Shown here: in pieces, positions 1 through 15,056 of the stretch
Layout of the letters: every line of letters starts with the position of its first letter
How positions within the stretch are numbered: position 1 is the stretch's first letter
Assembly: GCF_000092105.1 (NCBI RefSeq)
Contig: NC_014148.1
Coordinates: 2,640,001 to 2,672,000 of the forward strand
DNA from: Planctopirus limnophila DSM 3776
GTDB taxonomy: Bacteria > Planctomycetota > Planctomycetia > Planctomycetales > Planctomycetaceae
Length of the DNA: 32,000 nucleotides
Reading direction: 5' to 3'
Notes under the pieces: generated by a model
Databases searched by the model: none
What the model was told of the DNA's origin: nothing
The model's input: only the letters and a program-made list of their open reading frames with translations
Made by a program: the position numbers and the translations under genes

Positions 1-498
1 CGAGAAAGCCGCAAAGATGTAGCCGAGAATGTGATGATTGTGGATCTGCTGAGGAACGATCTCTCACGGGTTTGTCGTGCTGGAAGTGTGAACGTTCCTG
101 CATTATGCGAAGTGGAAACCTATCGGACAGTTCAACATCTCGTGAGTGTTGTCACGGGAGAACTCTCCGAGCCTTTTGACTCCTGGGACGCCTTGCGGGC
201 CTGTTTTCCCGGCGGTTCGATCACGGGGGCACCGAAAGTTCGAGCGACGGAAATCATTGCTGAACTGGAACCCACCACACGAGGCCCTTACACAGGAACA
301 TTGTTCTACATGACCCCCGATCTCTGGTGCGACAGCAGTATTCTCATTCGCACATTCATCGCGAGCGAGGGCTGGCTGCAATTGGGAGTCGGGGGTGGCA
401 TTGTCGTCAATTCCGACCCGGTTCAAGAGTTCGAGGAGACATTAACCAAAGCCTCCGGAATGCTTGCGGCTCTGACTCGCCCCCATTCGAGCGAGTAA
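1..498 (+). CDS. pabB: Aminodeoxychorismate synthase component I (chorismate-binding enzyme), C-terminal part; the 5' end lies outside the window
   Basis: Frame 1 is open from nt 1 (RESRKDVAENVMIVDLLRNDL...). DLLRNDL, FPGGSITGAPKVRATEIIAELEP and GGGIVVNSDP form the conserved C-terminal core of the TrpE/PabB family. The GGSITGAPK and GGGIV variants resemble E. coli PabB more than TrpE (from memory, no search run). Confidence 0.8.
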   Translation, partial: RESRKDVAENVMIVDLLRNDLSRVCRAGSVNVPALCEVETYRTVQHLVSVVTGELSEPFDSWDALRACFPGGSITGAPKVRATEIIAELEPTTRGPYTGTLFYMTPDLWCDSSILIRTFIASEGWLQLGVGGGIVVNSDPVQEFEETLTKASGMLAALTRPHSSE

Positions 499-8470: not shown

Positions 8471-10858
8471 ATGACTGAAAAACGCCCAGGGGCACGACGC
8501 CCAACGCGCCGCCGCTCAGACGATGTCGAGAACTCGACTGAGACACCCAAGCCTGTGATTGAAGAGGTTTTTGAGGAAGTCGCAGGGCTCCATCGCGAAT
8601 TTGATGGCGAGGAACCTCCCAAGCCAAAACGGACGCGGACTCCTCGGGCCACATCGACAGGCTCCCGCAGCGCTGGCGATTCTTCGACCAGCGAATCGGC
8701 TCCCCGTGCCGAACGACCTTCACGCCGCAAACCGGTACCGGTCGATATCGAACCAGCGCCCGTAGCCGGGAGTGCCATGTTCTACGATCCCGTCGATGAA
8801 TCTGACTTCACACCATCGACTCGATCCCGGAAGTCGCCCGACAATGCTGGTGCTGATGCATTCCCAGCGAGCGAAGAGCAACCGGCTGCAACACGGCGCC
8901 GACGTGCTCCCTCTCGAAGCCCTCGCGAAACATCAGCAGAATCCAGAACGGATGATGCCCCTAGAACGCAAGATACCCCCAGAGTTCAAAATACTCCCAG
9001 AGCCCAAGAAGACAGCGACTTCGGCTCTGGCCTGGATGACGTCGACTCGCCATCAAAATCGGCTGGTGCATCGAGATCTTCGCCCTCGAATGAAGGTGAA
9101 TTTCCGCCGAGAGATGAAGCCTCTTCCCGCACTCAGCGGCCACGCCGGTCGGCAGCGAGAACTGGTGGCGAAAGATCAAGTCGATACCAGAGTCGCGGAG
9201 ACGGACCTGCCGACGAACCAACTTCATTCGCACGTCGAGATCGATCAGAAGCCAGTGACAGATCGGAAGCCAGTGACTTTGAACCAGCACCGCGTTCTGG
9301 TGAGTCTTCTTCAGAGGCTTACAATCGCGCCGGTGGTGAAGATGAGGGGCCAAGGTCAGGCTCTCGCGATGAGAGCAATTCGGTTGAAAACTTTAATGAA
9401 TCAGGCTTTTCGGGCGAAAACCCGAACGATGGCACGCCCGCGCGTCGCCATGGTGGATTCAACGAAGGTGATGAGGGAGGCGACCCAAATGATGGAGGTC
9501 GCCGTCGTCGCCGCAGGCGCCGTCGTGGTCGCGGTGGCCCAGATGGTGGCCTGCAGGGCCCACAGGCACCCCGCGGACAGTTCGTTCCTCAGGGAAATAA
9601 TAATCCCCGCGGCCGGAACAACAACAATCGCTCACAAGGTGGTCACCAGCGAAATCAGGGAGGGAATCGTCCCTATGATCAATCGCGACGAGGTCCACAA
9701 AATCCTCAGGATCGCAATTACAACTCTGCTCCGCGCGGGCCGGAAGTGATTGAGCCCACCAGTGGCGTGCTCGAATTGCACCCCAAAGGCTATGGATTCC
9801 TGCGCGACCCGAAAGCCGGTTATGTCTCGCAGGAAACCGATCCGTTTGTGTCAGCCACCATCATTCAGAAGTTTGGTCTGCGTGAAGGTGTACTGATCCA
9901 GGGTGATATGGTTCAGGGCAGCCGGGGGCAGGGCCCGCGTCTGCGAACAACCGAGTATATCGATGGCCGTACACCCGAAGATTACGCACAAATCAAGGGG
10001 TTTGACGATCTCACACCAATCAATCCCTTTGAGCAGATCCGCCTTGAAACAGGGCCCACCCCGATCACTATGCGGATCATGGATCTGCTGACACCGATCG
10101 GTAAAGGTCAGCGAGCACTCATTGTGGCTCCGCCCCGCAGTGGTAAAACCATGCTGCTGCAGGAGATTGCCGATGCCGTCAGCAAGAATCATCCGGAGAT
10201 CTATCTGATTGTGCTGTTGATCGACGAACGTCCTGAAGAAGTGACAGAAATGCGTCGTCGCGTGCGCGGGGATGTCATTGCCTCCTCGATGGATCGTGAA
10301 GTCGAAAACCATGTTCGCGTCAGCCAGTTGATCTTTGAAAGGGCCAAAAGGCTCACCGAGGCAGGACGGGATGTCTTCATTCTGCTTGATTCGATTACCC
10401 GAACGGCCCGCGCTTTCAATAAATGGACAGGGAACACCGGTCGCACAATGTCCGGCGGTCTGGACATCAAGGCCATGGATATTCCCAAGAAGATGTTCGG
10501 CCAGGCCCGTCGTTTCGAAGAAGGGGGCTCACTCACTGTTGTCGGGACGGCACTTGTCGAAACCGGCAGCAAAATGGACGACGTGATCTTCCAGGAGTTC
10601 AAGGGGACTGGCAACATGGAAATGGTGCTCAGCCGAGACCTCGCAGATCGTCGCATCTGGCCTGCCATCGATGTTTCAAAATCGGGGACACGTCGCGAAG
10701 AAAAGATCCTCTCTCCCGAAGTGATGGAGGGGGTGACATTGCTCCGCCGCAGTCTGATTTCTTTGAGCCCCGTGGAAGCGATGGAGCAGATGGTTCGTAT
10801 TCTCACCAAATACAAAACCAACGAAGAGTTCCTCGCCAAGGTTCGTTCAATCCTCTAA
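8471..10858 (+). CDS. rho: Transcription termination factor Rho with a ~425-aa disordered N-terminal extension
   Basis: The C-terminal ~370 aa are collinear with E. coli Rho: GVLELHPKGYGFLR (CSD-like RNA-binding domain), GQRALIVAPPRSGKTMLLQEIA (Walker A), LLIDERPEEVTEM, LLDSITRTARAF and FKGTGNMEMVLSR. The N-terminal part is rich in R/S/D/E/P/G. Confidence 0.95.
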   Translation: MTEKRPGARRPTRRRSDDVENSTETPKPVIEEVFEEVAGLHREFDGEEPPKPKRTRTPRATSTGSRSAGDSSTSESAPRAERPSRRKPVPVDIEPAPVAGSAMFYDPVDESDFTPSTRSRKSPDNAGADAFPASEEQPAATRRRRAPSRSPRETSAESRTDDAPRTQDTPRVQNTPRAQEDSDFGSGLDDVDSPSKSAGASRSSPSNEGEFPPRDEASSRTQRPRRSAARTGGERSSRYQSRGDGPADEPTSFARRDRSEASDRSEASDFEPAPRSGESSSEAYNRAGGEDEGPRSGSRDESNSVENFNESGFSGENPNDGTPARRHGGFNEGDEGGDPNDGGRRRRRRRRRGRGGPDGGLQGPQAPRGQFVPQGNNNPRGRNNNNRSQGGHQRNQGGNRPYDQSRRGPQNPQDRNYNSAPRGPEVIEPTSGVLELHPKGYGFLRDPKAGYVSQETDPFVSATIIQKFGLREGVLIQGDMVQGSRGQGPRLRTTEYIDGRTPEDYAQIKGFDDLTPINPFEQIRLETGPTPITMRIMDLLTPIGKGQRALIVAPPRSGKTMLLQEIADAVSKNHPEIYLIVLLIDERPEEVTEMRRRVRGDVIASSMDREVENHVRVSQLIFERAKRLTEAGRDVFILLDSITRTARAFNKWTGNTGRTMSGGLDIKAMDIPKKMFGQARRFEEGGSLTVVGTALVETGSKMDDVIFQEFKGTGNMEMVLSRDLADRRIWPAIDVSKSGTRREEKILSPEVMEGVTLLRRSLISLSPVEAMEQMVRILTKYKTNEEFLAKVRSIL

Positions 10859-10914
10859 CAGGGCTTACCTTGCTCCCGATGGTGCACCAGTAAAAAACTG
10901 GTTTCAGATAACAG

Positions 10915-10959
10915 ATAAGCCCGTGTACTGAAGAATTTCAGTACGCGGGCTTATCTTTT
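10915..10959 (+). terminator. Intrinsic terminator after rho; probably bidirectional, shared with the convergent gene 10980-11615
   Basis: 18-bp stem ATAAGCCCGTGTACTGAA (10915-10932) / TTCAGTACGCGGGCTTAT (10937-10954) with one G-T wobble and a 4-nt loop, followed by CTTTT. Confidence 0.75.
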
Positions 10960-10979
10960 GAACACACAGGGAACTGTCA

Positions 10980-11615
10980 CTACCATTTCGTGAATTGAGG
11001 AGCTTGATCAAGCTGACCATGAGTGGAAATGGGCTGGCCTTTTCCGTTCAAGAAGGGAGGACGAGCAGGGGCATGAGCTGCAGGATGTCTCCTGGCATCC
11101 AATCGCTGGGCACGCTCCAAAGCTTCACGCGCTGCACGCTCCTGAATTTTCCGACGTGCGAGAGTGACCTGTTGCTCATAAGCCGCCGCTGCACTTCGCG
11201 ATGCTATCGCTTTTACTGGAGATTGATCCGTCGGCAAATCGTTATTCGAAGCATTGGCTGGCGGAATTGTCGCTGGCTCTTGCCCCGCTTGGGAATATGA
11301 AACCTGCCGAGTTCGATCGACGTCAGTACCGTTTGAACTGGCAGATTCCGAGTTGCTGCTGACCTGTGTTGGTGGGGGAGGATTCATCGATCCCGCAGGC
11401 GTCTGATCTTCAAACAGGAGCGGGAGCGGGCCCAATTCCTGCACCAGATTTTCTGTCGTCACTTTTGGTCGGACGAGTTCCGGGTCATGCTGAAAATGGA
11501 CGACCTCTTGAGCCAGACTGGTTCCCAGGGAGAGTGCCAGCACAGGGAGCGATAACGACAGGCCGGCGACATTGAACCATGACTGACGCATGTCATTAAA
11601 CTCCGACTGATCCAT
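10980..11615 (-). CDS. Hypothetical secreted or membrane-anchored protein
   Basis: ATG start. The N-terminal hydrophobic stretch WFNVAGLSLSLPVLALSLGTSLAQE looks like a signal peptide or anchor. It is followed by a low-complexity P/S/N-rich region and a charged helical segment (RRKIQERAAREALERAQRLDARR). I recognise no family. Confidence 0.55.
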   Translation of the reverse strand: MDQSEFNDMRQSWFNVAGLSLSLPVLALSLGTSLAQEVVHFQHDPELVRPKVTTENLVQELGPLPLLFEDQTPAGSMNPPPPTQVSSNSESASSNGTDVDRTRQVSYSQAGQEPATIPPANASNNDLPTDQSPVKAIASRSAAAAYEQQVTLARRKIQERAAREALERAQRLDARRHPAAHAPARPPFLNGKGQPISTHGQLDQAPQFTKW

Positions 11616-11852: not shown

Positions 11853-12620
11853 TTATTGGCCAGAATTCGGTGCTGGTGATGTCTGCGTAAGCACTGGCTG
11901 TTCGACGGCCGCGCCCTCAGTGCTTTTTGGCGATTCCGAATAGTCGCTCTGCTGTTGCTCAGTTTCTGCTGAGTGGTGCAGGGCATCCGCCAGTTGAGCC
12001 CTTTGAATTTGAATGGCTTCATCAAATTGATTGAGGACATCGATCGCTCGATCGCGCGATGTCACCAGTCCAATAATCAGGTACTGAATAATCGCCAGAC
12101 CATAACAGACCCAACCGACCCAGCCATCCTGAAAGACAGCCATAATGGCAAAGACAGGAGATGACCGGTTGAGGTGCTTGCACAACAAACCTCGAATCAA
12201 ATCCGGTAAGTAGCTCCAACACGCCTTGATACGTCCATGGGGTGGCATTTTGAAAGGAGGTGGCCCGGGATGAATAATCGCAAACAGCCCCTGATCAGGC
12301 ATGCCTTCAATCACACCTATCGCGAGCATTAATCGACCGGCCAGAATCATCCAGCCCTTTTCCTCGCGAAGATCAAGTGGCACCCAGCCAAAGAAGGCCT
12401 GCTCCATGTTGGCCGAGGCGACCAGCAGCAGAATTGCTCCACGGAACCAGAGTTCAAGATCTCGCTCAAGCTCTTGATCAAGCCCGTTCACTCGGACAAC
12501 ACGCTTCAAAAACCAGCGAAACAACGGGACTGCCATCAACCCGATGATCAGGCGCGTCACTGGTTTCAGTATCGGAGCCAGTAGTTGCGGCGGTATCAGT
12601 AATCGCAGCAACTCCAGCAT
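11853..12620 (-). CDS. Multi-pass membrane protein of unknown family; candidate retron effector
   Basis: 255-aa ORF with an ATG at 12620 preceded by AAGGAG (12630-12635, - strand) at a 9-nt spacing. About 4-5 hydrophobic segments are visible: LIIGLMAVPLFRWFL, GAILLLVASANMEQAFFGWV, GWMILAGRLMLAIGVI and VFAIMAVFQDGWVGWVCYGLAIIQYLIIGLV. The C-terminus is a polar tail. The gene lies 58 bp downstream of the RT stop on the same strand. Confidence 0.7.
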   Translation of the reverse strand: MLELLRLLIPPQLLAPILKPVTRLIIGLMAVPLFRWFLKRVVRVNGLDQELERDLELWFRGAILLLVASANMEQAFFGWVPLDLREEKGWMILAGRLMLAIGVIEGMPDQGLFAIIHPGPPPFKMPPHGRIKACWSYLPDLIRGLLCKHLNRSSPVFAIMAVFQDGWVGWVCYGLAIIQYLIIGLVTSRDRAIDVLNQFDEAIQIQRAQLADALHHSAETEQQQSDYSESPKSTEGAAVEQPVLTQTSPAPNSGQ

Positions 12621-12629
12621 GCGTAAAAA

Positions 12630-12635
12630 CTCCTT
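12630..12635 (-). promoter_or_regulatory. Shine-Dalgarno sequence of the membrane-protein gene
   Basis: The - strand reads CTGAAGGAGTTTTTACGCATG. A canonical AAGGAG sits 9 nt before the ATG at 12620. This is notable because most other genes in the window lack a strong SD. Confidence 0.6.
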
Positions 12636-12678
12636 CAGTGTGATGCCAACTTACCGACGCACAAACCGTGGCCAAAGA

Positions 12679-14019
12679 TCATGAATTCCAGTGGATCTTC
12701 TCAAAAATCTTCTGCAAACGCACTCCCCGGTCAGGATTCAAATGCCGGATATGTGCCAACCTGCCCTGAAGATGAGCTCGAAAATCAACCTGTTGATCTC
12801 GATTCTGTGTCTGATGACCATGCCGAACGCAATTGTGCAAAATCGCCTTGAGTTGATCGTAGTCTCTTCGAGAGCAATTGGGACGCTGATTCACGACCAC
12901 ACCAGTGACTGTCTGCCGATTCGACTGCCGGAGAATCCTTCGCTTCGCGGGCTGAGAATGAAAACGGCACTGCACTATCACCTTATCAGTCAGCGGCACA
13001 AATCTTTTGAGCTGTTTCAAAAACCGATGATCACCCGAGAATGTGAGATCGTCCGCGTAACGGGTGTAAATCGCACCAAATCGACGGGCCAAACCCGTCA
13101 GACGTACATCCAGTGAATATGTCGCCAGATTCGCCAGAGCCGGAGAAGTGGGCGCGCCTTGGGGTAAATGACGCCGTGTGAACAGCATAATCGAATAGGG
13201 ATTCTTATCGGGAAATGCCATACCCATGGGCAATGCCGAGGTTGTCAATCGCGCCAGCCACAAAGCCATTTCGCGAGAGTACCCCAGGGAACGAAAGATC
13301 GCGACGACTTTTGAAAATGTGACCGACGGATAGAAATCTTTCAGATCAAACTTCACCACCACAGCTTTCCCGGCATGCAACTGGGCATTTGAGACGATGT
13401 CACAACCGGGGACAAAACCATGTGCCGCTGGATGTGCGGGAACCAGATCAAGAATTCGCCTGAGAATGATCTCCTGGACTCTTTTGAGTGCTGGTTTGGG
13501 TGCTTCAATGAGCCGGTGCCCCGAGCGCTTTTTGCGGATCCATTTCAGCCAGTAATGCGATTTTTTTTCGGTGGGAGGTCGGCCATGATCGGCGAGGTGA
13601 ATCAATCCGGCCAGCCGCTTGATCGGCAGCCCCAGAAACTGGCTTAATTCATCAAGAGTGGTGAGGACTGGCAACCGATGTTGCTGCAGCAAATCGACGC
13701 GCGTATCCGTTAGCAGATTCAGAAACTGCTCACGTCGGCGCGTACGGGCATATCTGGCATAAACGTACGGAAGCTGATCGACTTGAGTTCCACGCCCCTC
13801 GATGCGCCATTGTCGCACCATTTCGGGTGATCGATATCTGAGTCGTGGAAGTTTCGGAGTTGTTGTGGAACCGAGCCATTGCCGCTTCTGGCCACCCGCT
13901 TGATTCGAAGAAGGGCTGCCCGGCAACGTGTGGTTGGAACCTGTCGGTCGCCACCAACTCAAGAACCAACTCCACAAACCCATGAAGACATCCTTGACCT
14001 GGCAATGCATCGTCCGCAT
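12679..14019 (-). CDS. Retron-type reverse transcriptase
   Basis: Collinear with retron Ec86 RT as I recall it. LPVLTTLDELSQFLGLPIKRLAGLI aligns with Ec86 LPVMNNLHDMSKATRISVETLRLLI. HGFVPGCDIVSNAQLHAG contains NAxxH (nt 13375-13389). Further matches are FDLKDFYPSVT, IFRSLGYS, LPQGAPTSPALANL, YTRYADDLTFS (YADD, nt 13048-13059) and NRQTVTGVVVN (VTG, nt 12901-12909). The start is uncertain: ATG at 14019, or Met67 at 13821. Confidence 0.9.
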   Translation of the reverse strand: MRTMHCQVKDVFMGLWSWFLSWWRPTGSNHTLPGSPSSNQAGGQKRQWLGSTTTPKLPRLRYRSPEMVRQWRIEGRGTQVDQLPYVYARYARTRRREQFLNLLTDTRVDLLQQHRLPVLTTLDELSQFLGLPIKRLAGLIHLADHGRPPTEKKSHYWLKWIRKKRSGHRLIEAPKPALKRVQEIILRRILDLVPAHPAAHGFVPGCDIVSNAQLHAGKAVVVKFDLKDFYPSVTFSKVVAIFRSLGYSREMALWLARLTTSALPMGMAFPDKNPYSIMLFTRRHLPQGAPTSPALANLATYSLDVRLTGLARRFGAIYTRYADDLTFSGDHRFLKQLKRFVPLTDKVIVQCRFHSQPAKRRILRQSNRQTVTGVVVNQRPNCSRRDYDQLKAILHNCVRHGHQTQNRDQQVDFRAHLQGRLAHIRHLNPDRGVRLQKIFEKIHWNS

Positions 14020-14033
14020 TGAATTCCAAAAAA

Positions 14034-14052
14034 TCGACCGCCGGGTCGCACA
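14034..14052 (-). repeat. Retron a2 inverted repeat (3' end of the msd-coding region)
   Basis: Partner of a1 (see above). It ends 15 nt upstream of the RT ATG at 14019. Confidence 0.8.
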
Positions 14053-14067
14053 ACCAATGCCTGTTTC

Positions 14068-14105
14068 GAATCCTGTCTACGGTGGAACCACCGTAGACAG
14101 GATTC
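14068..14105 (-). repeat. Long perfect hairpin in the msd region
   Basis: GAATCCTGTCTACGGTGG (14068-14085) + AA + CCACCGTAGACAGGATTC (14088-14105). This is an 18-bp perfect palindrome, the size and position expected for the msDNA stem. Confidence 0.85.
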
Positions 14106-14183
14106 CAGTTCAGTATGGGAGCAATCATTCGAGCACGGGGTAACCCCGCACCGGCCAGGCTTTTCAGCGATATGGCCTCTTCT

Positions 14184-14202
14184 TGTGCGACCCGGCGGCC
14201 GA
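14184..14202 (-). repeat. Retron a1 inverted repeat (5' end of msr)
   Basis: The + strand TGTGCGACCCGGCGG (14184-14198) is the exact reverse complement of CCGCCGGGTCGCACA (14038-14052). Pairing extends to 19 bp (to 14202 / 14034) with one G-U wobble. Confidence 0.8.
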
Positions 14203-14238: not shown

Positions 14239-14384
14239 GCGGCTTTTTGAGCAACCGTTGTGTCACAATTTCTGCAGGGATTTGAATCCTCGTTCTCTCA
14301 GGGAATACACGAGCAGACGTTTCAACTATGCTATGTCGAATCGTTCGTCAAAAGATTACTCACCGAGAAGAGAAACCGATCGAT

Positions 14385-15056
14385 ATGTTTTCTGCAGGTC
14401 CAACTCCGCTGGATGTCACCTTTGTACTTTTTGGCATTCCCGTTCGAGTGAACCCGATGTTCTGGCTGATGGCCGCTGCCCTGGGTTGGGGATCAGGTGA
14501 CCTGCCACTGGTGCTGATCTGGGTGTGGTGTGTCTTTTTCTCAGTACTCATTCATGAACTGGGACACGCTCTGACAGCCGAGTGGTTTGGCTGGCGAAGT
14601 TCAATCCTGCTCTATTTTGGGGGAGGGCTGGCTTTCTCAGATCGGTACGTCAATAACACGCCGGGGCGGTCTGTGATCATGTCGTTCATGGGCCCGATGG
14701 CTCAATTCCTGCTCTTGGGAATCGTGCTGATCGTTTTATTGGCCTTGCGGGCCTTTCAAGTCGAGATTCCGCCTTACGCAGCGACGGCGTTTAATTATCT
14801 GATCATCATCAATATCTTCTGGCCGATCTTGAATCTGCTCCCGATTCTGCCACTCGATGGAGGCCGCATCCTGCAGGGCCTGCTCGATATGTTCCGTATC
14901 CGGCGGCGCAGTGATATCACCCGCGGGATCAGCGTCGTTCTCGCAGCGGCTGTTGCCGTCTGGTGCTTCACTGAAAACATGCCTTTCGGCACGATCATGT
15001 TCGGTTTGATTGCCTGGCAGAACGCGAGTGGAGCGTTTGATTCTCGCGCCTATTGA
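14385..15056 (+). CDS. Site-2 protease family (peptidase M50) integral membrane metalloprotease
   Basis: Shows the HExxH motif VLIHELGHALTAEWFGW, the second M50 signature NLLPILPLDGGRIL, and multiple hydrophobic segments. I chose the ATG at 14385 (MFSAGPTPLDV) over the track start at 14328. Confidence 0.8.
   Translation: MFSAGPTPLDVTFVLFGIPVRVNPMFWLMAAALGWGSGDLPLVLIWVWCVFFSVLIHELGHALTAEWFGWRSSILLYFGGGLAFSDRYVNNTPGRSVIMSFMGPMAQFLLLGIVLIVLLALRAFQVEIPPYAATAFNYLIIINIFWPILNLLPILPLDGGRILQGLLDMFRIRRRSDITRGISVVLAAAVAVWCFTENMPFGTIMFGLIAWQNASGAFDSRAY

What the first reader, a model, noticed from the sequence alone, without database searches (positions are those of the whole stretch)
11853..12620. Candidate retron effector: a 255-aa multi-pass membrane protein of unrecognised family
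Seen directly: this gene is on the same strand, 58 bp downstream of the RT stop. It has the best Shine-Dalgarno in the window (AAGGAG, 9 nt from the ATG). It has about 4-5 hydrophobic segments and a polar, Q/E/S-rich C-terminal tail. Established knowledge: retrons encode their effector next to the RT, and the order ncRNA-RT-membrane protein is known from Retron-Ec48 (RT + 2TM effector, Millman et al. 2020), where membrane disruption is thought to drive abortive infection. Inference: this protein is the toxin or effector of the retron. Its size and number of TM segments do not look like a simple 2TM protein, and I recognise no domain. The RT + effector pair may therefore be an undescribed retron type.
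Basis: partly seen in the sequence, partly recalled or inferred. Interest (0 to 1): 0.8.

Follow-up and report, generated by a model that had tools for sequence, protein, structure and literature searches.

The report
Conserved planctomycete membrane protein beside retron
The gene is real and sits just after a genuine retron, but it belongs to a membrane-protein family found across one planctomycete family with or without the retron beside it, so it is more likely an ordinary lineage-specific membrane protein than the retron's dedicated toxin.

Summary
Window 11853-12620 (minus strand) encodes a 255-aa protein with about 5 hydrophobic helices and a polar tail. AAGGAG lies 9 nt before the ATG, and the gene starts 58 bp after the RT stop.

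The RT is a true retron RT. It has the YADD, NAxxH and VTG motifs. A 151-nt ncRNA lies upstream, with an a1/a2 stem and 28 of 41 base pairs showing compensatory changes.

The effector reading is only partly supported. The protein has no Pfam, NCBIfam, PADLOC, PHROG or PDB match. Its family is compact and confined to Planctomycetaceae (at least 240 species genomes), in housekeeping surroundings (mutL-aroDE-aroK, topA, rho).

- An RT lies directly upstream in 26 of 70 informative homolog loci.
- Starting from RT orthologs, the protein follows in 5 of 11.
- The ncRNA accompanies the RT in about 36 of 38 loci.
- Adjacency changed at least 14 times on the protein tree.
- The protein is equally conserved with or without the RT beside it.
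- Sister-clade retrons have no conserved neighbour.

Most likely this is a lineage-specific core membrane protein whose position next to a vertically inherited retron reflects ancestral gene order (about 0.55). A real functional partnership is not excluded (about 0.35-0.4).

The parts
11853..12620 (-). CDS of the 255-aa membrane protein ('TM255'). It has about 5 hydrophobic helices, a long cytoplasmic C-terminal helix and a disordered Q/E/S-rich tail.
   Evidence: ORF listing and translation; 1208 homologs; alignment A1 with 53 invariant residues; AlphaFold2 model, pLDDT 76
12630..12635 (-). Shine-Dalgarno-like AAGGAG, 9 nt upstream of the ATG
   Evidence: Sequence. One of only 7 AAGGAG in the window against 18.5 expected. 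Conserved only in Planctopirus; other genera have weaker GGAG/AGGA or no such motif.
12621..12678 (-). 58-nt spacer between RT and TM255, with no terminator-like site; compatible with co-transcription
   Evidence: In 32 linked loci the gap ranges from -13 to 314 nt (one outlier at 2608), median about 95 nt.
12679..13983 (-). Retron-type reverse transcriptase (434 aa from the conserved MGLW start; the ORF extends to an upstream ATG at 14019)
   Evidence: Pfam RVT_1 3e-21. PADLOC RT_other 413 bits, RT_outgroup (retron) 391, RT_XIII 344. Invariant YADD, NAxxH and VTG columns. Start inferred from orthologs.
14043..14193 (-). Retron ncRNA (msr-msd). It has a 14-bp a1/a2 closing stem, an invariant unpaired G after a1, a GGGG-UUA-CCCC hairpin and a long covarying hairpin.
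   Evidence: Alignments. RNAalifold gives 41 pairs, 28 with compensatory changes. Both a1 and a2 found upstream of the RT in about 36/38 ortholog loci. Not in Rfam.
14035..14048 (-). Terminator-like hairpin overlapping the 3' half of a2, followed by a T-run
   Evidence: Consensus scan. The GC-rich stem plus T-run is conserved in most orthologous loci (alignment). Function not tested.
14328..15056 (+). Context only: divergently transcribed Peptidase_M50-like membrane protein. It is the RT's other conserved neighbour.
   Evidence: tblastn synteny; Pfam PF02163 on orthologs
10980..11615 (-). Context only: downstream 211-aa ORF with a hydrophobic N-terminal segment, 237 nt after TM255. Found only in the Planctopirus loci.
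   Evidence: no family match

Best explanation
TM255 is a lineage-specific inner-membrane protein of the family Planctomycetaceae. It has about 5 TM helices and a cytoplasmic C-terminal helix and tail. It is inherited vertically as part of the conserved chromosome backbone.

Its position 58 bp downstream of the retron is the ancestral gene order of this family: ATP-grasp, MR_MLE, M50(-) | ncRNA-RT-TM255-mutL-aroDE-aroK. That order has decayed many times. In some lineages the ncRNA-RT cassette stays with the M50 side. In others TM255 stays with mutL.

In Planctopirus, TM255 is probably co-transcribed with the RT: short gap, no terminator, strong SD. It does not depend on the retron, and it is not a toxin held in check by RT-msDNA. 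Its biochemical role is unknown. The invariant charged and polar residues in or near the membrane helices (ELExD, NME, EGMPDQ, HLNRSS) suggest a transporter- or enzyme-like membrane function rather than a simple pore-former.

Shown: the gene, the family, its distribution, the synteny statistics and the retron's identity. Inferred: independence from the retron, and non-toxicity.
For: 1. Linkage is facultative in both directions. The RT is directly upstream on the same strand in 26/70 informative TM255 loci. TM255 is downstream of 5/11 independently sampled RT orthologs: present in L081, L083, L084, L165, L166 and absent in L082, L161-L164, L167.
2. Internal control: ncRNA and RT stay together in about 36/38 loci. 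No ncRNA relic remains in any RT-less TM255 locus within +-10 kb.
3. Breakpoints fall between RT and TM255, and each gene keeps its other neighbour. L163 and L164 have ATP-grasp-MR_MLE-M50|RT followed by unrelated genes. L069 has M50|TM255. Many loci have TM255-mutL-aroDE-aroK without an RT. mutL adjacency (16/69) is of the same order as RT adjacency.
4. Adjacency changed at least 14 times on the TM255 tree.
5. TM255 is equally conserved whether linked or not: mean identity 58.5% within linked loci, 55.7% within unlinked, 56.0% between. 57 columns are >=90% conserved in both groups.
6. Context and composition are native. Neighbours are rho, clpB, mutL, topA and aro genes. GC is 52.7% and GC3 55%, like the neighbouring genes.
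7. The sister clade of the RT (41-48% identity) carries the same GGGG-YUA-CCCC hairpin in about half the loci by a simple pattern search. It has no TM255 and no conserved neighbour. So this retron lineage does not generally carry a cis effector.
8. No model of any known defence effector matches.
Against: - The RT is still TM255's single most frequent neighbour (37% against 23% for mutL). The pair has stayed together while both outer flanks changed, for example in L012, L025, L049 and L063.
- Gaps are operon-like, median about 95 nt and often 9-60 nt.
- The TM255 family is confined to the same taxon as this RT subclade. An exhaustive profile search found only 138 representatives and no distant relatives.
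- This RT subclade alone carries the N-terminal MGLFxFLRRLxFG motif, which could be a membrane-binding helix.
- I could not test whether unlinked genomes still hold both genes, so coupling in trans is not excluded.
- By prior expectation, most retrons do have an adjacent effector (PMC7736814).
Confidence: 0.55

Rival explanations
1. TM255 is the cognate membrane effector of an undescribed retron type. The RT-msDNA complex holds it inactive. Phage perturbation releases it to depolarise or permeabilise the inner membrane, giving abortive infection as proposed for Retron-Eco6/Ec48. Where the genes are unlinked, the system works in trans.
For: - The retron is genuine.
- TM255 is on the same strand 58 bp downstream, with a strong SD and no terminator.
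- The pair recurs across genera with operon-like gaps.
- The RT is TM255's commonest neighbour.
- The phyletic ranges of TM255 and the RT subclade coincide.
- There is precedent for membrane effectors: type IV, an integral membrane protein with two TM helices (PMC7736814).
Against: - Linkage is only about 37-45% in either direction, against about 95% for ncRNA-RT.
- A toxin kept alone, under undiminished purifying selection, in more than half of the lineages is unexpected.
- Inheritance is vertical, the context is housekeeping, and there is no defence island.
- Sister-clade retrons lack any partner.
- No PADLOC effector model matches.
- Many invariant polar residues look more like a transporter or enzyme than a simple membrane disruptor.
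Confidence: 0.25
2. TM255 is a non-toxic functional partner of a domesticated, vertically inherited retron. It could be a membrane anchor or sensor that recruits the RT (through the RT's N-terminal amphipathic MGLF helix) or the msDNA to the membrane, for a cellular rather than defensive role.
For: - Both genes are inherited vertically in the same family.
- The N-terminal motif MGLFxFLRRLxFG is specific to this RT subclade and absent from the sister clade. From my own knowledge it resembles the membrane-binding N-terminal helix of PspA/Vipp1. That is a lead, not a test.
- A non-toxic partner would tolerate being unlinked.
Against: - There is no direct evidence of interaction.
- The motif is also present in RTs that are not next to TM255 (L082, L161-L164, L167).
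- The linkage statistics are no better than for neutral neighbours.
Confidence: 0.15

Closest known systems
Retron type IV (Retron-Eco6 / Ec48): ncRNA + RT + 2TM membrane effector
   Same: The gene order is ncRNA-RT-membrane protein, on the same strand. The membrane protein lies just downstream of the RT and has no recognisable domain (PMC7736814).
   Different: - The RT here scores best against PADLOC RT_other, RT_outgroup and RT_XIII; no type IV RT model is among the 25 best listed.
- The protein has about 5 hydrophobic helices and 255 aa, not a signal peptide plus 2 TM helices.
- No PADLOC effector model matches.
- Linkage is facultative and inheritance is vertical.
Retron type XIII (RT clade 10; WH-SWIM protein plus HEAT/ARM protein)
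   Same: RT similarity is strong (344 bits to RT_XIII). Inheritance is vertical: type XIII is the type whose tree correlates with host 16S (PMC7736814).
   Different: The window RT scores higher against the RT_other and RT_outgroup models than against RT_XIII. No gene cluster recurs next to the RT orthologs apart from M50 and TM255, and none recurs next to the sister-clade RTs. I did not scan the neighbours for SWIM or HEAT/ARM domains, and I did not compare the ncRNA with the type XIII consensus.
Orphan retrons (for example the Retron-Eco5/Ec107 branch): ncRNA + RT without a linked effector
   Same: The sister clade, and about half of the orthologs of this RT, have no conserved partner gene. 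Mestre et al. raise effectors in trans or a different function as possibilities (PMC7736814).
   Different: In this window a candidate partner does sit in an operon-like position, and that arrangement recurs in about 40% of related species.
Lineage-specific conserved hypothetical membrane proteins (taxonomically restricted core genes)
   Same: One locus in each of the 80 assemblies listed, restricted to one bacterial family, native composition, housekeeping neighbours, no Pfam family.
   Different: Unusually, its most frequent neighbour is a retron.

Membership tests
Retron (ncRNA + RT cassette), for the upstream element | RT domain with a catalytic YxDD box plus the retron-specific NAxxH and VTG motifs | tested here: met
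   RVT_1 3e-21. YADD (Y321-D324), N211-A212-x-x-H215 and V371-T-G373 are invariant in 21 orthologs. PADLOC retron RT models score 344-413 bits. The RT is below every NCBIfam retron cut-off.
Retron (ncRNA + RT cassette), for the upstream element | Structured ncRNA just upstream of the RT, closed by a1/a2 inverted repeats, with a conserved G next to a1 | tested here: met
   14-bp a1/a2 stem with compensatory changes (for example GGAT../..ATCC in L161). An invariant unpaired G follows a1. 28 of 41 pairs covary.
Retron (ncRNA + RT cassette), for the upstream element | Production of msDNA (a branched RNA-DNA molecule) | not testable with these tools
   Needs nucleic-acid extraction and gel or sequencing from Planctopirus.
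Retron effector (third component of a tripartite retron) | Encoded next to the RT/ncRNA in an operon-like arrangement | tested here: met
   58-nt gap, same strand, no terminator-like site, SD present.
Retron effector (third component of a tripartite retron) | Specific, consistent association with the RT clade across genomes (the criterion of Mestre et al. 2020) | tested here: inconclusive
   RT adjacent in 26/70 TM255 loci. TM255 adjacent in 5/11 RT orthologs. 0 of 76 sister-clade RT loci have TM255. ncRNA-RT control is about 36/38. Genome-wide co-occurrence in trans could not be tested.
Retron effector (third component of a tripartite retron) | Toxic activity neutralised by RT-msDNA and needed for defence | not testable with these tools
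   Experimental. Indirect evidence argues against it: TM255 persists without an adjacent RT with undiminished conservation.
Retron type IV (Ec48-like) 2TM effector | [quoted passage not shown] | tested here: not met
   About 5 hydrophobic helices in 255 aa. No PADLOC family at E<=1.
Any described protein family or fold | Significant match to Pfam, NCBIfam, PHROGs, PADLOC, PDB sequences or PDB folds | tested here: not met
   Best Pfam E 0.12 and best NCBIfam E 0.11, both far below cut-off. PADLOC and PHROGs gave 0 families. PDB profile search best E 0.19. Foldseek best E 1.7 with full-length TM-scores below 0.25.
Vertically inherited, taxon-restricted core membrane protein | Present across the taxon, one locus per assembly, native composition, housekeeping synteny | tested here: met
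   240 species-level genomes. The 80 best loci all come from different assemblies of Planctomycetaceae-type taxa. Neighbours are mutL, aroDE, aroK, topA and rho. GC and GC3 are native. I did not measure the fraction of all Planctomycetaceae genomes that carry it.

The most novel reading that the evidence does not exclude
A family-wide, vertically inherited retron of Planctomycetaceae works with this lineage-specific 5-TM protein, in cis or in trans, as a membrane-associated system. The RT would be tethered through its subclade-specific N-terminal amphipathic MGLF helix. That would be a new retron type, whose role may be cellular or domesticated rather than classical abortive infection.
Probability: 0.25. 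Interest if true: 0.75.

Novelty: new variant of a known kind. Interest (0 to 1): 0.45.

Why it matters
If TM255 were a true retron partner, it would define a retron type outside the 13 described. It would have a multi-pass membrane component and strict vertical inheritance in a phylum where retrons have not been studied. That would bear on the open question of whether some retrons have been domesticated for non-defence roles.

If it is a neighbour by ancestry, as the linkage data favour, the lesson is practical. In slowly rearranging lineages, 'the gene next to the RT' is not enough to call an effector. The ncRNA-RT linkage (about 95%) against RT-neighbour linkage (about 40%) gives a usable internal control.

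Either way, the retron itself is a well-supported and apparently undescribed element: a conserved ncRNA and an RT with a lineage-specific N-terminal extension, in a core-genome location. TM255 is also an uncharacterised, strongly conserved membrane-protein family.

Tried and rejected
- Rfam scan of the whole window: no family.
- Pfam, NCBIfam, PADLOC and PHROGs for TM255: nothing significant.
- PDB sequence profile and Foldseek on the AlphaFold2 model: no match. The weak rhodopsin and 14-3-3 rows are generic helical hits, rejected.
- Exhaustive profile search for distant relatives or informative fusions: only the same family was found. P0245 (593 aa) has a low-complexity N-terminal extension that looks like an over-extended ORF. 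P0294 looks like an RT C-terminus fused to the TM255 N-terminus, but the junction is garbled, so it is a probable frameshift or gene-calling artefact on a fragment. Neither is taken as a real fusion.
- Test for coupling in trans in one isolate. In Schlesneria paludicola DSM 18645, TM255 is not RT-linked. A search with a Schlesneria RT listed no protein named for S. paludicola among the best 120.
- Horizontal transfer or defence island: rejected, because composition is native and the neighbours are housekeeping genes.
- The name 'DNA topoisomerase I' carried by some homologs: rejected as an annotation error. In Gimesia the real topA gene lies convergently next to TM255.
- Literature: no paper in the held library holds both 'retron' and any of Planctopirus, Gimesia, Planctomycetota or Planctomycetaceae among those listed. 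The papers that mention retrons and 'Planctomycetes' do so only incidentally.

Full report
**1. What is in the sequence**

The ORF at 11853..12620 lies on the minus strand: ATG start, 255 aa. It begins 58 nt after the stop (12679) of a 446-aa ORF with an RVT_1 domain. AAGGAG sits at 12630-12635 (-), 9 nt before the ATG. The hexamer is depleted in this window, with 7 copies against 18.5 expected. No terminator-like site lies in the spacer.

Hydropathy shows peaks at about 13-34, 59-80, 89-107 (plus a short 110-116), 154-165 and 168-188, followed by a polar region from 189 to 255. An AlphaFold2 model built on 29 homologs (pLDDT 76, pTM 0.50) has helices 11-41, 48-77, 89-106, 110-116, 130-163 and 167-228, then a disordered tail.

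The window is from Planctopirus or a very close relative. The RT is 96% identical to that of P. ephydatiae. Locus L002 from P. hydrillae is collinear with the window.

**2. The upstream element is a genuine retron**

- The RT scores 413 bits against PADLOC RT_other, 391 against RT_outgroup (retron) and 344 against RT_XIII. It is below every NCBIfam retron cut-off.
- In an alignment of 21 orthologs, YADD, NAxxH (N211, A212, H215) and VTG (V371, G373) are invariant.
- All orthologs start with MGLFxFLRRLxFG, so the true start here is M13 at window 13983.
- A strongly conserved 151-nt element lies upstream, at window 14043-14193 (-). In 23 sequences RNAalifold predicts 41 pairs, 28 of them with compensatory changes.
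- The element has a 14-bp closing stem between GGGTCGCACAA and its complement (a1/a2), an invariant unpaired G just after a1, a GGGG-YUA-CCCC hairpin and a long covarying hairpin.
- Rfam has no match.
- Both a1 and a2 are found upstream of the RT in about 36 of 38 ortholog loci with enough sequence. L166 has the hairpin only and L065 has nothing.

**3. The protein family**

TM255 has no significant match in Pfam, NCBIfam, PADLOC or PHROGs, in PDB sequences or in PDB folds.

It has 1208 homologs at E<=1e-3. The 120 listed are 47-99% identical and mostly 230-270 aa. The core (residues 1-210) carries 53 invariant residues. Among them are charged and polar motifs in or next to the helices: ELExD..W, NME, GVIEGMPDQ.LF..IHPGP, HLNRSSPV, GW.CY and YL.IGL..S.D.A. 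The C-terminal tail is variable.

An exhaustive profile search of 1.84 billion representatives found only 138 hits. All were the same family or fragments of it. So this is a compact, taxonomically restricted family.

A scan of one genome per GTDB species found relatives in 240 genomes. The 80 best loci come from 80 different assemblies: Planctopirus, Schlesneria, Gimesia, Planctomicrobium and unnamed Planctomycetaceae or Planctomycetales MAGs.

**4. Is it tied to the retron?**

*Starting from TM255.* An RT ortholog (46-57% identity) lies directly upstream on the same strand in 26 of 70 loci with at least 1.5 kb of upstream sequence. Three more loci have it nearby: L046 behind an insertion, L057 on the opposite strand, and L074 with an intervening ORF. 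In linked loci the gap from RT stop to TM255 start runs from -13 to 314 nt, median about 95.

In the other 43 or so loci the upstream genes are unrelated (DUF1501, an MBL-fold protein and others). No ncRNA relic is present within +-10 kb.

*Starting from the RT.* This is an independent sample. TM255 follows in L081, L083, L084, L165 and L166. It does not follow in L082, L161 (Caulifigura coniformis), L162, L163, L164 or L167. That is 5 of 11.

*The next RT clade.* This clade is 41-48% identical and scores 285 bits or less. It has 76 loci. It never has TM255 and has no conserved neighbour of any kind. A simple pattern search still finds the same GGGG-YUA-CCCC hairpin in about half of these loci.

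**5. Synteny control**

TM255's neighbours are housekeeping genes: mutL, aroD/E, aroK, topA, and here rho and clpB. The fullest arrangement, on a 140-kb Schlesneria contig, is M50(-) | RT-TM255-mutL-aroDE-aroK, with gaps of 39-100 nt. Upstream of M50 many loci carry an ATP-grasp gene and an MR_MLE gene, and in some loci Fae and Mpt genes as well.

When the pair is split, each gene keeps its outer neighbour. L163 and L164 have ATP-grasp-MR_MLE-M50|RT followed by unrelated genes. L069 has M50|TM255. Eight loci informative on both sides have TM255-mutL with no RT.

mutL adjacency (16/69) is of the same order as RT adjacency (26/70). On a neighbour-joining tree of TM255, RT adjacency changes at least 14 times.

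TM255 is as conserved in unlinked loci as in linked ones. Mean identity is 58.5% within linked loci, 55.7% within unlinked and 56.0% between the groups. 57 columns are >=90% conserved in both groups. GC and GC3 of RT and TM255 match their neighbours.

**6. Interpretation**

The contrast between ncRNA-RT linkage (about 95%) and RT-TM255 linkage (about 40%) is the key result. The retron's obligate unit is ncRNA plus RT. TM255 behaves like a flanking gene of an old, vertically inherited block.

I therefore favour the reading (about 0.55) that TM255 is a lineage-specific core membrane protein. In Planctopirus it is probably co-transcribed with the RT, but it does not depend on the RT functionally.

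Some points keep a functional link alive, at about 0.25 for a toxic effector and about 0.15 for a non-toxic partner:
- The RT is TM255's commonest neighbour.
- The pair has survived rearrangements on both outer flanks.
- Gaps are operon-like.
- The phyletic range of TM255 coincides with this RT subclade.
- This subclade alone has the N-terminal MGLFxFLRRLxFG motif; the sister clade has a different N-terminal domain.

From my own knowledge, that motif resembles the membrane-binding N-terminal helix of PspA/Vipp1. This is a lead only. I could not test whether unlinked genomes retain both genes. The one attempt, on Schlesneria paludicola, was inconclusive.

**7. Comparison with known systems**

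The layout resembles type IV retrons (Ec48: RT plus a 2TM protein). The RT is not placed with type IV, the protein is not a 2TM protein, and no effector model matches.

The RT is nearest to PADLOC's unclassified and outgroup models and to type XIII, which Mestre et al. describe as vertically inherited. Type XIII is linked to a WH-SWIM protein and usually a HEAT/ARM protein (PMC7736814). No gene cluster other than M50 and TM255 recurs next to these RT orthologs, and none recurs next to the sister-clade RTs. I did not scan the neighbours for those domains. Orphan retrons without linked effectors are documented in the same paper.

No paper in the held library links retrons with Planctomycetaceae.

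**8. Verdict**

- Observation: confirmed.
- Interpretation: partly supported.
- The gene is real, conserved and uncharacterised. The retron next to it is real and apparently undescribed.
- The claim that this protein is the retron's effector is not established. The comparative data disfavour it, though they do not exclude it.
- Interest is moderate at 0.45. The most novel surviving reading is a new, membrane-associated, vertically inherited retron type, which I put at about 0.25.

Noticed in passing
window 14043-14193 (-): Retron ncRNA not in Rfam. It has a 14-bp a1/a2 stem, an invariant G after a1, a GGGG-UUA-CCCC hairpin and a long hairpin whose sequence varies but whose pairing is kept. 28 of 41 pairs have compensatory changes across 23 loci.
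   Followed up: yes
window 14035-14048 (-) and the T-run after it: A terminator-like hairpin formed by the 3' half of a2 and the following bases, then a T-run. Most orthologous loci have the equivalent (GCGGCCCGCTGGCC + TTTT). It could end the ncRNA transcript or attenuate read-through into the RT.
   Followed up: partly
window 13945-13983 (-) (RT residues 13-25 of the long ORF): The RT orthologs all start with a conserved amphipathic motif, MGLFxFLRRLxFG, followed by a basic low-complexity linker. The annotated-looking start at 14019 is probably wrong. The motif is absent from the sister RT clade, which has a different N-terminal domain. It recalls the membrane-binding N-terminal helix of PspA/Vipp1 (from memory, not tested).
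   Followed up: partly
L085-L160 (metagenome loci): A large sister clade of retron RTs (41-48% identity). A pattern search finds the same GGGG-YUA-CCCC hairpin upstream in about half of the loci. No conserved neighbouring gene is present, so these look like orphan retrons. I did not determine their host taxa.
   Followed up: partly
P0056, P0092, P0109, P0111, P0116 (homologs of TM255): Several database entries name this membrane protein 'DNA topoisomerase I'. In Gimesia the real topA gene lies convergently just downstream, so the name looks like a misannotation.
   Followed up: yes
window 14328-15056 (+); L163, L164, L165: A Peptidase_M50-like membrane protein is transcribed divergently from the ncRNA-RT in about 20 loci. 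Beyond it lies a conserved ATP-grasp / MR_MLE pair, with Fae and Mpt genes in some loci. This looks like the tetrahydromethanopterin C1 gene neighbourhood. The retron therefore sits in an old core-genome block.
   Followed up: partly
window 8471-10858 (+): The rho gene encodes a 795-aa protein. Its first 400 or so residues are low-complexity and rich in R, S, E, G and N: a large N-terminal insertion before the conserved Rho core.
   Followed up: no
window 10980-11615 (-) and 10900-10960: A 211-aa ORF with a hydrophobic N-terminal segment lies 237 nt downstream of TM255. It occurs only in the Planctopirus loci. A long GC-rich inverted repeat between it and rho looks like a shared bidirectional terminator. 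If so, ncRNA-RT-TM255-orf211 could form one transcription unit.
   Followed up: no
P0294 (365-aa metagenomic fragment): An RT C-terminal half appears fused in frame to a TM255 N-terminal half, but the junction is garbled. This is probably a frameshift or gene-calling artefact, though it would be worth checking as a possible natural fusion.
   Followed up: partly
L065 (RT ortholog locus): This is the one RT ortholog, with adjacent TM255, for which no a1/a2 or hairpin motif was found upstream by pattern search. The ncRNA may be diverged, or the region misassembled.
   Followed up: no
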